From an uncultured Chloroflexia bacterium (lineage in GTDB: Bacteria > Chloroflexota > Anaerolineae > Anaerolineales > Anaerolineaceae), in the NCBI GenBank assembly GCA_963768585.1, contig CAVYIF010000015.1, positions 86,683 through 110,682 on the forward strand: a DNA stretch of 24,000 nucleotides, given 5' to 3'. The position numbers and the translations under genes were made by a program. Within the stretch, counting starts at the first letter, position 1. The number at the start of each line of letters is the position of its first letter. This document shows positions 13,438-14,471 of the stretch, in pieces. A model generated the notes under the pieces. It was not told the origin of the DNA. It did no database searches and saw nothing but the letters and a program-made list of their open reading frames with translations.

Positions 13438-13552
13438 CCATCCGATAAAAACTCGTTTTATCTTCGGCAGCCTGGCGGTCCTGGTCACGCTTGTGACGGT
13501 AGACCCATGGCTTTGCGTCCCCGGCTTTCGCCGGGTTTGCCTTTATCGGATG
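13438..13552 (-). promoter_or_regulatory. c-di-GMP-I (GEMM-I) riboswitch, copy A
   Basis: Minus strand reads CAUCCGAUAAAGGCAAACCCGGCGAAAGCCGGGGACGCAAAGCCAUGGGUCUACCGUCACAAGCGUGACCAGGACCGCCAGGCUGCCGAAGAUAAAACGAGUUUUUAUCGGAUGG. This contains the GEMM-I core: GGCAAACC, a GAAA-capped hairpin, GGACGCAAAGCC, then a second hairpin. Confidence 0.85.
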
Positions 13553-13586
13553 TGGTATTTCGGTTTCAATACCCCGACTAACTATT

Positions 13587-13993
13587 TTAAGGGGCAGGAT
13601 CGAGCGCTGCTGCTGGCGACGACATTCAGCGCGGTTACATCATCAAGCGGCAGGGAACCGTGACGGTGCAGGTCGCTAGTCATGGAAGAGTGCTGTACCG
13701 GCCACGAGGACGCAGTCTGTCCAGGCTCCGCCAGTCACAGTTTGAATTTTGACGATGGCTGCTACCACAGTATCCGCTAATAGGCGCAATAAGGAACGTG
13801 ATCGCATCAACGGTAGTGGGGTCGGTTGCATTCAGATCGTACACGAAGCGGTGACCGCATAACCTGGAACCACGCTGGCCTTATAACCGGCGGCACTTTC
13901 GGTAACGGTATTCGCAGCTGCGAAGGCATAGGCGCTGCCGGCGATGACGAGCACGGCCAGAATGACGAACAGAAATTTTACATTGCGTAACAT
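13587..13993 (-). pseudogene. paralog 2 of the SipW-cognate secreted protein, with at least 5 frame changes
   Basis: Its signal peptide is identical to paralog 1 (MLRNVKFLFVILAVLVIAGSAYAFAAANTV). Homologous blocks (VYDLNATDPTTVDAITF, VVAAIVKIQTVTGGAWTDCV, LATCTVTVP, DDVTALNVVASSS, LDPAP-stop) lie in alternating frames. Confidence 0.7.
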
Positions 13994-14065
13994 GGCTTTT
14001 TCCTTTTTTGCGTCCCCGGTTCTCGCCGGTTCCGCGCTAGTCAAACAAAACTTTGAGGTTGAAAG

Positions 14066-14180
14066 CCATCCGATAAAAACTCGTTTTATCTTCGGCAGCC
14101 TGGCGGTCCTGGTCACGCTGGTGACGGTAGACCCATGGCTTTGCGTCGCCGGCTTTCGCCGGGTTTGCCTTTATCGGATG
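14066..14180 (-). promoter_or_regulatory. c-di-GMP-I (GEMM-I) riboswitch, copy B
   Basis: Near-identical to copy A, including the 11-bp outer helix. It is part of a ~630-bp segmental duplication. Confidence 0.85.
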
Positions 14181-14374
14181 TTCGAGGAAATTGTCAACTC
14201 GATGCTCAAACAAAGGTTGAGCTTTATGGGTTGTCTGCGATCCTTTGCCTCCTTTATGCATCCCCCCGGTTTGCGCCGGAGCCACAACTGTGAAATTTTT
14301 TTCTTGACGATCATCCGAATAAAAAAATGATCTGGCTTCCGACACGCAAAGCCAAATCATCACGAGAAACCTCT

Positions 14375-14471
14375 TGTGATCTTCGGCGGCCTGGCGGTCA
14401 TGGTCACGTGAGTGACAGTAGATCCACGGCTTTGCGTCGCCGGCTTTCGCCGGGTTTGCCTTTATCGGATG
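14375..14471 (-). promoter_or_regulatory. c-di-GMP-I (GEMM-I) riboswitch, copy C (divergent)
   Basis: CAUCCGAUAAAGGCAAACCCGGCGAAAGCCGGCGACGCAAAGCCGUGGAUCUACUGUCACUCACGUGACCAUGACCGCCAGGCCGCCGAAGAU. It is followed by small hairpins and a U7 run (14321-14353), which may be a terminator-type expression platform. Confidence 0.8.

What the first reader, a model, noticed from the sequence alone, without database searches (positions are those of the whole stretch)
13438..14471. Three c-di-GMP-I (GEMM-I) riboswitch aptamers in series on one leader/operon
Seen: the minus strand carries three copies of CAUCCGAUAAAGGCAAACCCGGCGAAAGCCGG(G/C)GACGCAAAGCC..UGG.UCUAC.GUCAC....GUGACCA.GACCGCCAGGC.GCCGAAGAU, running 13552 to 13438, 14180 to 14066 and 14471 to 14375.

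Established: this is the GEMM-I architecture. The V. cholerae Vc2 aptamer, as I recall it, has GGCAAACC, a GAAA-capped hairpin, GGACGCAAAGCC, a second hairpin, then a 3' closing strand.

Copy details:
- A and B are near-identical and sit in a ~630-bp segmental duplication (gene starts at 13364 and 13993). Both have an extra 11-bp outer helix (CAUCCGAUAAA/UUUAUCGGAUG).
- C differs at several positions in the second hairpin and lacks the outer helix. It is followed by small hairpins and a U7 run (14321-14353).
- C and B lie ~200 nt apart upstream of one ORF, and A follows that ORF.

Inference: a single transcript from the 14489-14517 promoter could carry three sensors. Tandem c-di-GMP aptamers are rare, and in the few described cases they give sharper or multi-threshold responses.
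Basis: partly seen in the sequence, partly recalled or inferred. Interest (0 to 1): 0.75.

Follow-up and report, generated by a model that had tools for sequence, protein, structure and literature searches.

The report
Three c-di-GMP riboswitches from cassette duplication
Three genuine c-di-GMP-sensing RNA switches sit on one Chloroflexota operon for small secreted proteins, but they arose by repeated copying of a riboswitch-plus-gene cassette, and tandem switches of this class are already well known.

Summary
Rfam finds three full-length c-di-GMP-I-clan aptamers on the minus strand: A 13462-13550, B 14090-14178, C 14381-14469 (E 1e-12 to 1e-17). The best model is the "GGC" variant (RF03167). 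All three nevertheless keep the canonical G20/A47/C92 pocket, so I read them as ordinary c-di-GMP sensors.

They control a conserved, uncharacterised ~133-aa secreted protein family. It lies next to a SipW-like signal peptidase and DUF5305, the context of TasA-like fibre loci. About 60 of 80 related metagenome loci carry one such riboswitch, two carry two, and only this window carries three.

Unit C has a hairpin-plus-U7 terminator, and a gene-less leader relic follows it. Units A and B lack a terminator. They keep a strand that can pair with either the aptamer's 5' end or the start codon.

Complementarity and energy models favour OFF switches: transcriptional at C, translational at A and B. 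This direction is inferred, not shown.

Tandem c-di-GMP-I switches are common (347 doublets and 12 triplets reported), and C does have the outer helix.

Both downstream genes carry frameshifts, probably assembly errors. Verdict: a new member of a known kind, of modest interest.

The parts
14489..14517 (-). Promoter-like site: -35 TTGTAT (14512-14517), 17-nt spacer, -10 TATAGT (14489-14494)
   Evidence: Read from the sequence. A TATAGT-like -10 box sits at a matching distance upstream of ACAUCCG in the related leaders I read. The strict consensus scan did not list it because the -35 matches only 3 of 6.
14381..14469 (-). Aptamer C (c-di-GMP-I clan); G20=14460, A47=14433, C92=14386
   Evidence: Rfam RF03167, 61.0 bits, E 2.3e-12, full length. 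Pocket nucleotides read.
14321..14361 (-). Intrinsic terminator of unit C: stem GAUGAUUUGGCUU/AAGCCAGAUCAU (14326-14361) followed by U7 (14321-14327)
   Evidence: Terminator scan found 14 pairs plus a T-run. The homologous hairpin plus U-tract is present in nearly all single-unit relatives, is 97.8% paired and has 3 pairs with compensatory changes. Its 5' strand is complementary to aptamer segments GCCGAA and GCAAAGCC.
14312..14323 (-). 3' strand of the outer helix of unit C (UUUAUUCGGAUG). It pairs with CAUCCGAUAAA at 14461-14471 and overlaps the terminator U-tract.
   Evidence: RNA fold and sequence. The segment AUUCGGAUGGCU is nearly invariant in 41 related leaders.
14181..14311 (-). Relic of a former leader and gene start between C and B: a hairpin CCGG-CGCAAA-CCGG, then AAAGGAGG (14248-14255), with no start codon or ORF
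   Evidence: Compared by eye with the intact leader layout of relatives. The same kind of relic occurs between the two aptamers of L001 and L019.
14090..14178 (-). Aptamer B; G20=14169, A47=14142, C92=14095
   Evidence: Rfam RF03167, 69.1 bits, E 1.1e-14.
14055..14077 (-). Unit B switching strand: outer-helix 3' strand UUUAUCGGAUG (14067-14077), overlapping AUGGCUUU (14062-14069), then CAACCU
   Evidence: UUUAUCGGAUG pairs with 14170-14180. AUGGCUUU is complementary to AAAGCCAU at the gene B start (13992-13999). Both helices appear in the MFE fold.
13587..13993 (-). Gene B: paralogue of the ~133-aa secreted protein family, broken by several 1-2-nt indels and an in-frame stop
   Evidence: tblastn and DNA alignment. 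Family-conserved residues persist in each shifted frame, read against alignment A2.
13462..13550 (-). Aptamer A; G20=13541, A47=13514, C92=13467
   Evidence: Rfam RF03167, 79.4 bits, E 1.2e-17.
13427..13449 (-). Unit A switching strand: UUUAUCGGAUG (13439-13449), overlapping AUGGCUUU (13434-13441), then CAACCU
   Evidence: UUUAUCGGAUG pairs with 13542-13552. AUGGCUUU is complementary to AAAGCCAU (13363-13370), and CCU to the AGG of the SD (13374-13376). MFE fold; coordinates.
12965..13364 (-). Gene A: ~133-aa secreted protein with an A-X-A signal peptide. One extra T near 13077 shifts the frame; the corrected frame ends at TAA 12965-12967.
   Evidence: The corrected product matches 301 homologues end to end, and P0001 (intact, 132 aa) is 98% identical. 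The indel was located against L002.
12895..12929 (-). Strong GC-rich hairpin flanked by A- and U-runs after gene A; likely end of the riboswitch-controlled transcript
   Evidence: Read from the sequence AAAGAAAAGGCCUGGCCCAGCCAGGCCUUUUCUUU. The scan did not list it because its T's lie inside the stem.
11251..12883 (-). SipW-like (archaeal/ER-type) signal peptidase I (12344-12883) and DUF5305 (11251-12402). These form one fused ORF in relatives; here an extra A at 12409 splits them.
   Evidence: TIGR02228 1.8e-20, Peptidase_S24/S26, DUF5305 5.5e-09. Fused 539-aa ORF in L001. Indel located against L002.

Best explanation
**What is shown**
- The three elements are real class-I c-di-GMP riboswitch aptamers with the canonical G20/A47/C92 binding pocket.
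- They belong to a riboswitch-leader-gene cassette that is conserved across Chloroflexota. It sits in front of an uncharacterised ~133-aa secreted protein, next to a SipW-type signal peptidase fused or adjacent to DUF5305.

**Origin (inferred from comparison)**
- The ancestral cassette holds a promoter, the aptamer, a small hairpin, an intrinsic terminator, a switching strand, a covarying hairpin, the SD and the AUG.
- In this lineage the cassette was copied. Copy C kept the terminator but lost its gene. Copies B and A lost the terminator and kept the genes.
- All three are transcribed from the promoter-like site at 14489-14517.

**How it works (inferred)**
- C is a transcriptional OFF switch. 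Without ligand, aptamer segments (GCCGAA of P1-3' and GCAAAGCC) pair with the 5' half of the terminator stem, and RNA polymerase reads through. With c-di-GMP the aptamer holds those segments, the terminator forms, and transcription stops at the U7 run (14321-14327).
- A and B act on translation of their own cistrons. The strand UUUAUCGGAUGGCUUU pairs with the aptamer's 5' end (outer helix) when no ligand is bound. When ligand locks P1, the strand is free and pairs with AAAGCCAU plus the SD, which hides the start site.
- The net prediction is that high c-di-GMP lowers production of the secreted proteins, in two layers.
For: **Identity**
- Three full-length Rfam hits, E 1e-12 to 1e-17. Pocket nucleotides G/A/C are present in all three, matching the Vc2 ligand contacts G20, A47 and C92 (PMC4744006).
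- The aptamer helices covary across 41 related leaders.

**Cassette and origin**
- The regex parse found aptamer cores in about 60 of 80 related loci. The layout is conserved in the 41 leaders aligned in A4.
- L001 and L019 share the doublet, with a terminator-bearing first unit and a terminator-less second unit.
- A relic SD without an ORF follows C. The A and B units form a ~629-bp duplication.
- Contigs L002 and L014 break at or inside the aptamer, as expected if it is repeated in those genomes too.

**OFF logic**
- The terminator hairpin is 97.8% paired and shows compensatory changes.
- In 38 relatives, when the terminator's 3' strand is blocked, its 5' strand pairs with the aptamer's P2 3' strand in most of them. 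The two states differ by only about 2.4 kcal/mol on average, and terminator probability is 0.37.
- In window C, L001 and L019 the terminator has a different sequence, yet its 5' strand is again complementary to aptamer segments. The antiterminator is the MFE.

**Translational part**
- AUGGC/GCCAU is 95.9% paired, with two pairs showing compensatory changes (cases such as L034 and L010 read). Non-coding nucleotides are strongly conserved on both sides.
- The MFE folds of units A and B contain this helix and the SD pairing.
- Modelled AUG accessibility falls from 0.66-0.68 to 0.36-0.42 when the aptamer is sequestered.
- Dual transcription-translation control by a c-di-GMP-I riboswitch has a precedent in Bc1 (PMC11218506).
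Against: - No ligand binding or expression data exist. The direction of regulation rests on complementarity and nearest-neighbour energies.
- The outer helix and the antiterminator show almost no covariation. Both sides are simply conserved, and shuffles match the observed scores. One clade, with 5' AAAACGAAAAA, has lost the outer helix.
- In the MFE folds of units A and B, a truncated outer helix and the start-site helix coexist, so the modelled change in accessibility is modest. Across all leaders the mean AUG accessibility moves only from 0.52 to 0.43.
- DUF5305 with signal peptidase I marks TasA-like matrix-fibre loci (PMC11821415; bioRxiv 10.64898/2026.01.04.697558). For a matrix fibre one would rather expect c-di-GMP to activate.
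- Genes A and B are both frameshifted in this assembly, so regulation of functional products here is assumed, not shown.
Confidence: 0.55

Rival explanations
1. The same three aptamers are ON switches. c-di-GMP binding raises expression of the secreted proteins, as expected if they are subunits of a biofilm-matrix fibre.
For: The genomic context is a signal peptidase I plus DUF5305 next to small secreted beta-sandwich proteins. This matches TasA-like, Tafi and AbpX fibre loci linked to biofilms (PMC11821415; PMC12337348; bioRxiv 10.64898/2026.01.04.697558). c-di-GMP usually promotes matrix production. ON-type c-di-GMP-I switches exist, such as the B. thuringiensis Bc3-5 triple tandem (PMC4759541). 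In the MFE of units A and B the start site is already paired without ligand.
Against: The terminator is a self-contained hairpin that borrows no aptamer strand, so a bound aptamer cannot prevent it. Every alternative pairing found for its 5' strand uses aptamer segments that the ligand-bound fold would lock away. I found no element that would sequester the AUGGCUUU strand specifically in the bound state.
Confidence: 0.25
2. Only C, or none of the copies, still regulates. A and B are passengers of a recent duplication, and the gene B cassette or the whole array is decaying into pseudogenes.
For: Gene B carries several indels and a stop, and gene A carries one frameshift. C has already lost its gene. 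A and B lack a terminator. B and C have a C-C mismatch at the closing pair of P1a.
Against: From aptamer to signal peptide, the leaders of A, B and the 88%-related L001 are almost identical, while the mature-protein coding region diverges. That points to constraint or gene conversion on the leader. The P1a mismatch is the family norm, present in 32 of 41 leaders. The frameshifts preserve family residues in every frame, and other genes in the window are also split (GH42, the peptidase-DUF5305 junction). This pattern fits assembly indel errors. The terminator-less second unit is shared with L019, whose protein is about 61% identical.
Confidence: 0.12
3. The aptamers are members of the c-di-GMP-I-GGC variant class (RF03167), whose changed pocket suggests a ligand other than c-di-GMP.
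For: RF03167 is the best-scoring Rfam family for all three, at 61-79 bits against a gathering score of 59.
Against: The model's conserved G at position 37 (Vc2 position 47) is A in all three copies and in every related aptamer found. Close relatives with the same pocket are assigned to RF01051 at 56-83 bits. The assignment therefore flips with overall sequence similarity, not with pocket identity.
Confidence: 0.04
4. The tandem copies are an assembly artefact, with strain variants stitched in series.
For: The window carries many frameshifts typical of an indel-prone assembly. Gene B is the most damaged part.
Against: Two independent relatives, L001 and L019, have the C-type plus B-type doublet. 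Independent contigs L002 and L014 end at the aptamer, as repeats do in short-read assemblies. Units A and B differ by 11-23% in the coding segments and encode distinct paralogues.
Confidence: 0.04

Closest known systems
Tandem c-di-GMP-I riboswitches (347 doublets and 12 triplets surveyed in PMC9481103; Bc3-5 triple tandem of Bacillus thuringiensis, PMC4759541)
   Same: Several complete class-I aptamers lie on one transcript, upstream of genes for extracellular or surface proteins. The first unit has its own intrinsic terminator.
   Different: Only C and B share a leader; A sits between two paralogous genes. The units carry different expression platforms: a terminator in C and a start-site-pairing strand in A and B. 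Bc3-5 is three similar switches in one 5' UTR. The host here is Chloroflexota rather than Bacillota. The predicted direction is OFF.
Vc2 / canonical c-di-GMP-I aptamer (RF01051)
   Same: Shares the P1, the P1a with a GAAA tetraloop, and the P1b architecture. G20, A47, C92 and C44 are present.
   Different: In B and C (not A) and in most relatives, the closing pair of P1a is a mismatch. The 5' strand of P1 extends into an 11-nt segment that also has a distal partner (the outer helix).
c-di-GMP-I-GGC variant (RF03167)
   Same: Primary sequence is very similar and RF03167 is the best Rfam score. The variant's seed sequences probably come from related leaders; this is my inference.
   Different: The defining G at position 47 is absent; all three have A.
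Bc1 c-di-GMP-I riboswitch with a long expression platform and dual transcription-translation regulation (PMC11218506)
   Same: A long expression platform combines terminator and translation-level elements behind one c-di-GMP-I aptamer.
   Different: Bc1 has two terminators and incoherent regulation. Here there is one terminator, whose U-tract runs into a strand that can pair with the aptamer 5' end or with the start site. In this window the two functions are divided between separate tandem units.
TasA-like, Tafi and AbpX fibre loci with signal peptidase I and DUF5305 (PMC11821415; bioRxiv 10.64898/2026.01.04.697558)
   Same: Small secreted beta-sandwich proteins lie next to an archaeal-type signal peptidase I and DUF5305. 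The two are fused in Chloroflexota relatives, as reported for Anaerolinea and Tepidiforma.
   Different: The 133-aa protein has no detectable sequence or fold match to TasA, TafA or AbpX. None of the passages I searched in those papers mentions riboswitch control.

Membership tests
c-di-GMP-I riboswitch aptamer (GEMM-I; Rfam clan CL00126, RF01051) | Covariance-model match above the curated threshold | tested here: met
   Three full-length hits at 61-79 bits to RF03167. One further same-clan hit above its own gathering score per aptamer was hidden by clan competition. Near-identical relatives score 56-83 bits on RF01051, whose gathering score is 35. The RF01051 scores for the window copies themselves were not displayed.
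c-di-GMP-I riboswitch aptamer (GEMM-I; Rfam clan CL00126, RF01051) | Ligand-contacting nucleotides G20, A47 and C92 (Vc2 numbering) and C44 of the interhelical pair | tested here: met
   G, A, C and C at 13541/13514/13467/13517 (A), 14169/14142/14095/14145 (B) and 14460/14433/14386/14436 (C). Contacts as listed in PMC4744006. The mapping to Vc2 numbering is mine, from the cmscan alignment.
c-di-GMP-I riboswitch aptamer (GEMM-I; Rfam clan CL00126, RF01051) | P1, P1a (GNRA loop) and P1b helices supported by covariation | tested here: met
   On 41 related leaders, P1a has 4 of 6 pairs and the distal P1b has 5 of 5 pairs with compensatory changes. Overall 90.7% of cells are paired against 23-41% for slid controls.
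c-di-GMP-I riboswitch aptamer (GEMM-I; Rfam clan CL00126, RF01051) | Binds c-di-GMP and changes gene expression | not testable with these tools
   Needs in-line probing or ITC, plus reporter or termination assays.
c-di-GMP-I-GGC variant (RF03167) | G instead of A at the intercalating position 47 (model position 37). The reading of the name as positions 20/47/92 is from my memory of Weinberg et al. 2017, which could not be read here. The model consensus GACGCGAAgCc agrees with it. | tested here: not met
   The cmscan alignment shows a mismatch at that column in all three. A is present at 13514, 14142 and 14433. All related aptamers found have GACGCAAAG.
Tandem (pseudo-cooperative) riboswitch arrangement | Two or more aptamers of one class in the same untranslated leader, with no gene between them | tested here: met
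   C and B are 202 nt apart. The spacer holds only a relic SD and no family ORF. A does not qualify, because gene B lies between B and A.
Tandem (pseudo-cooperative) riboswitch arrangement | Each aptamer has its own expression platform, typically a terminator | tested here: inconclusive
   C has a terminator. B and A have none, only the strand that can pair with the start site.
Tandem (pseudo-cooperative) riboswitch arrangement | Steeper dose-response than a single switch | not testable with these tools
   Requires reporter titrations with single versus stacked units.
Intrinsic (Rho-independent) terminator, unit C | GC-containing hairpin directly followed by a U-run, conserved in relatives | tested here: met
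   A 14-pair stem plus U7. The homologous hairpin is 97.8% paired with compensatory changes in 41 leaders.
TasA-like / Tafi / AbpX donor-strand fibre locus | Signal peptidase I with a DUF5305 accessory module next to small secreted subunits | tested here: met
   TIGR02228 1.8e-20 and DUF5305 5.5e-09. Fused ORF in L001. Literature context from PMC11821415 and bioRxiv 10.64898/2026.01.04.697558.
TasA-like / Tafi / AbpX donor-strand fibre locus | Subunit with a TasA-like fold or sequence | tested here: not met

The most novel reading that the evidence does not exclude
The cassette carries a composite expression platform that I have not seen described for c-di-GMP-I riboswitches.

- It contains an OFF terminator whose U-tract runs straight into a conserved strand, AUUCGGAUGGCU.
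- That strand can pair with the aptamer's own 5' end, enclosing and unfolding the aptamer, or with the SD and start codon.
- One ligand-binding event would therefore gate both transcription and translation.
- In this lineage the two functions have been split between tandem units: C is terminator-only and gene-less, while A and B carry only the translational part.
- It would repress, rather than induce, a putative TasA-context fibre subunit in Chloroflexota.
Probability: 0.3. Interest if true: 0.5.

Novelty: new member of a known kind. Interest (0 to 1): 0.3.

Why it matters
- **c-di-GMP in Chloroflexota.** The finding ties c-di-GMP signalling in Chloroflexota, a phylum with little experimental second-messenger work, to a specific gene set. 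That set is widespread and uncharacterised: a ~133-aa secreted protein next to a signal peptidase I-DUF5305 module. This gives a testable entry point for what c-di-GMP controls in these organisms.
- **How tandem riboswitches arise.** It is a clear natural example of tandem riboswitches arising by cassette duplication followed by loss of parts.
- **Rfam labelling.** It warns that the Rfam label c-di-GMP-I-GGC can be assigned to aptamers with a canonical pocket.
- **Limits.** As a tandem c-di-GMP riboswitch it is not surprising in itself.

Tried and rejected
1. **GGC-variant ligand change.** Rejected because position 47 is A in all copies and relatives.
2. **Upstream ORF at the conserved AUGGCU.** Rejected. 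ORF lengths run from 2 to 29 codons, frames differ, there is no conserved peptide, and some loci have GUG.
3. **Independent promoters in front of B or A.** TTGACA (about 14198-14203) and TTGAAA motifs exist, but their -10 positions fall inside the aptamer and they are not conserved in L019. Considered unlikely.
4. **Protein function.**
   - Pfam, NCBIfam, PDB sequence and Foldseek PDB searches gave nothing significant.
   - A weak archaellin hit (5tfy, E 0.7) and some JGI "archaellin" labels are not supported. The signal peptide has an A-X-A type I site, and the locus has no archaellum genes.
5. **Source record.** Exact-protein look-ups found no contig and no accession. The closest genome is an uncultured Chloroflexia MAG.
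6. **Weinberg et al. 2017.** The paper that defines the GGC variant is not held, so the meaning of "GGC" rests on my memory plus the model consensus.
7. **Covariation for the outer helix and antiterminator.** None was found beyond conservation.
8. **RF01051 bit scores for the window copies.** These could not be displayed because clan competition hides them.
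Full report
**Observation**

Rfam cmscan at gathering thresholds returns exactly three hits in the 24-kb window, all on the minus strand and all full length. They lie at 13462-13550 (A, 79.4 bits, E 1.2e-17), 14090-14178 (B, 69.1 bits, E 1.1e-14) and 14381-14469 (C, 61.0 bits, E 2.3e-12).

The repeat finder gives a 185-nt family at 13369-13553, 13997-14181 (96%) and 14288-14472 (62%). It also shows that A and B belong to a ~629-bp tandem duplication. A and B differ at 2 of 115 nt. C differs from A at 9 of 89 aptamer positions.

**Which family**

The best-scoring model is RF03167 (c-di-GMP-I-GGC), not RF01051. One more same-clan hit above its own gathering score exists per aptamer but is hidden by clan competition.

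The RF03167 consensus differs from the canonical core at model position 37 (GACGCGAAgCc). By my count from the alignment, this corresponds to Vc2 A47. The Vc2 ligand contacts are G20, A47 and C92 (PMC4744006). All three window copies have G, A and C at those positions, and the cmscan alignment shows a mismatch at position 37 in each.

Every related aptamer I found also has GACGCAAAG. Among relatives with the same pocket, the Rfam assignment flips between RF01051 (56-83 bits) and RF03167 (60-78 bits). I therefore file these as canonical-pocket c-di-GMP-I aptamers. The GGC label reflects overall sequence similarity only.

The reading of "GGC" as positions 20/47/92 is from my memory of Weinberg et al. 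2017. That paper could not be retrieved.

**What they control**

Each of B and A is followed, about 95 nt downstream, by an ORF starting MLRNVKFLFVILAVLVIAGSAYA (13993 and 13364). Neither ORF is intact.
- Gene A needs one frame correction near 13080.
- Gene B needs several, and contains a stop.

With the correction, gene A encodes a 133-aa protein that matches 301 database homologues end to end. P0001 (132 aa, intact) is 98% identical.

An independent metagenome contig, L002, is 97% identical over 1.6 kb. Against it the window has:
- an extra T at 13077, which causes the gene A frameshift;
- an extra A at 12409. I read this as lying in an A-run and as the cause of the split between the signal peptidase and DUF5305 ORFs, which are fused in L001.

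A GH42 gene elsewhere in the window is also split. The shifted frames of gene B still encode family-conserved residues. I therefore think most of these frameshifts are assembly indel errors, but recent pseudogenes cannot be excluded.

The protein family has no Pfam or NCBIfam match. Its AlphaFold model (pLDDT 80) is an N-terminal helix plus a beta sandwich. It has no significant PDB match by fold or by sequence.

Downstream, after a strong hairpin at 12895-12929, lie an archaeal-type (SipW-like) signal peptidase I (TIGR02228, 1.8e-20) and DUF5305. Recent literature describes DUF5305 as an accessory of signal peptidase I in TasA-like, Tafi and AbpX fibre loci. It is sometimes fused to the peptidase in Chloroflexota (PMC11821415; bioRxiv 10.64898/2026.01.04.697558). 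The closest genome is an uncultured Chloroflexia MAG.

**Comparative anatomy**

A metagenome scan with the protein alignment returned 80 loci. The regex parse found aptamer cores in about 60 of them. The leaders with enough upstream sequence that I read share one layout, and 41 of them were aligned as A4:
- a TATAGT-type -10 box;
- ACAUCCGAUAAAGGCAAACC, the aptamer, then GCCGAAGAU;
- a small hairpin (CACAAA...UUUGUG);
- a GC-rich hairpin with a U6-8 tract;
- AUUCGGAUGGCU;
- a variable spacer;
- a hairpin just before the SD;
- AAGGAGAAAAGCCAUG.

On the 41 aligned leaders, the aptamer helices, the small hairpin, the terminator and the pre-SD hairpin all show compensatory changes. The pairing AUGGCU/AGCCAU, which covers the first two bases of the start codon, is 95.9% paired with two compensated pairs (L034 and L010 are examples, read).

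The 11-bp outer helix (CAUCCGAUAAA with UUUAU(U)CGGAUG) is 90.7% paired but shows no covariation, and one clade has lost it. The candidate antiterminator (aptamer GCCAGGCC with terminator GGCCUGGC) is 96% paired with little covariation.

An upstream ORF at the conserved AUGGCU is excluded.

**This window against the norm**

Only L001, L019 and the window have more than one aptamer. Only the window has three aptamers and two gene copies preceded by aptamers.

In all three multi-aptamer loci the first unit has the terminator. It is followed by a decayed leader with an SD-like AAAGGAG but no ORF. The second unit has lost the small hairpin and the terminator, and goes straight from P1 to UUUAUCGGAUGGCUUUC.

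Unit C in the window therefore is a cassette that lost its gene. Units B and A are a later duplication of the terminator-less unit together with the gene.

Contigs L002 and L014 break at or inside the aptamer, as expected for a repeat. This argues against an assembly artefact.

I found no convincing promoter in front of B or A, and no terminator between gene B and A. The three sensors can therefore lie on one read-through transcript from 14489-14517.

**Mechanism**

This section is inference.

*Unit C.* The terminator is a self-contained hairpin. In 38 relatives, when the terminator's 3' strand is blocked, its 5' strand pairs with the aptamer's P2 3' strand in most of them. The two states are nearly isoenergetic (mean difference 2.4 kcal/mol; terminator probability 0.37). 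That is what an OFF switch needs.

In the window's C unit, as in L001 and L019, the terminator sequence is different. Its 5' strand UUUGGCUUUGCG is again complementary to aptamer segments, GCCGAA of P1-3' and GCAAAGCC. The antiterminator is the predicted MFE. Ligand binding should free the terminator 5' strand and stop transcription at the U7 run.

*Units A and B.* The MFE contains both a slightly shortened outer helix and the helix AUGGCUUU/AAAGCCAU with CCU/AGG over the SD. If the aptamer is treated as closed, modelled AUG accessibility drops from 0.66-0.68 to 0.36-0.42. The drop is in the same direction in the other terminator-less units that parsed cleanly (L001, L002, L057).

I therefore favour translational repression by c-di-GMP, coherent with C. 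The effect in the model is modest, and an ON reading remains possible. I give ON about 25%, partly because a fibre or matrix gene would be expected to be induced by c-di-GMP.

**Comparison with what is known, and novelty**

Tandem c-di-GMP-I riboswitches are the most numerous tandem class, with 347 doublets and 12 triplets (PMC9481103). They are statistically enriched as tandem arrangements (PMC12452182). A triple tandem has been dissected experimentally (PMC4759541). Dual transcription-translation control by a c-di-GMP-I riboswitch with a long platform has been reported (PMC11218506).

The present case is a new member of this known kind. Its features of interest are:
- the Chloroflexota host and the regulated gene family;
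- the division of labour between a terminator-bearing, gene-less first unit and terminator-less following units;
- the conserved strand that links the terminator U-tract, the aptamer 5' end and the start site.

I score interest at 0.3.

Noticed in passing
window 77-2225 (-), 12396-12411 (-), 13077 (-), 13587-13993 (-): Several genes are split by single-base indels. These are the GH42 beta-galactosidase (catalytic and trimerisation domains in overlapping ORFs), the signal peptidase-DUF5305 junction (extra A at 12409 against L002), gene A (extra T at 13077) and gene B (several). The pattern suggests an indel-prone assembly rather than decay.
   Followed up: partly
window 13378-13412 and 14006-14040 (-); L067:1330-1400: The hairpin just upstream of each SD (GCGCGGAACCGGCGAGAACCGGGGACGCAAAAAAGG) resembles the 5' half of the aptamer (GGCAAACCCGGCGAAAGCCGGGGACGCAAAGCC). 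The start region AAAGCCAUG repeats the aptamer's AAAGCCAUG. In L067 a leader consists of such a half-aptamer alone. This may be a remnant of an internal duplication, or a functional mimic.
   Followed up: partly
alignment A4 columns 18/33; window 14147 and 14438 (-): The closing pair of P1a, next to the binding pocket, is a non-canonical mismatch (C-C, C-A or C-U) in 32 of 41 related aptamers and in window copies B and C. Copy A has C-G. The effect on affinity is unknown.
   Followed up: no
L010:330-560: One relative has a degenerate aptamer-like leader (GGTAAAGGAAGGCCCGG...TGTTGCAAAGC) with no Rfam hit. It still keeps a start-pairing strand with a compensated pair (AUGGUU with ACUAU).
   Followed up: partly
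L027:884-1871: Two tandem copies of the protein gene lie here. Between them is only a remnant of the aptamer's 3' part (GCCAGGCTGCCAAAGATCAC) and no Rfam hit. This looks like an example of riboswitch loss after duplication.
   Followed up: no
protein alignment A2/A3: The ~133-aa family has two invariant cysteines (C94, C109 in the corrected gene A) and an invariant W91. It also has a conserved C-terminal TALN-V-ASS-DPAP motif. It matches no Pfam or NCBIfam family, and a few JGI records call it "archaellin".
   Followed up: partly
window 14198-14203 (-): A perfect TTGACA hexamer lies 17 nt upstream of aptamer B and is also present in L001. Its -10 position would fall inside the aptamer's 5' end, so it is probably not a promoter for the riboswitch.
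   Followed up: partly
window 7090-8716 (+): A methyltransferase ORF (7090-8103) overlaps by about 450 nt an ORF with a CdhD-like domain (7652-8716). This may be another frameshift or a fused gene.
   Followed up: no
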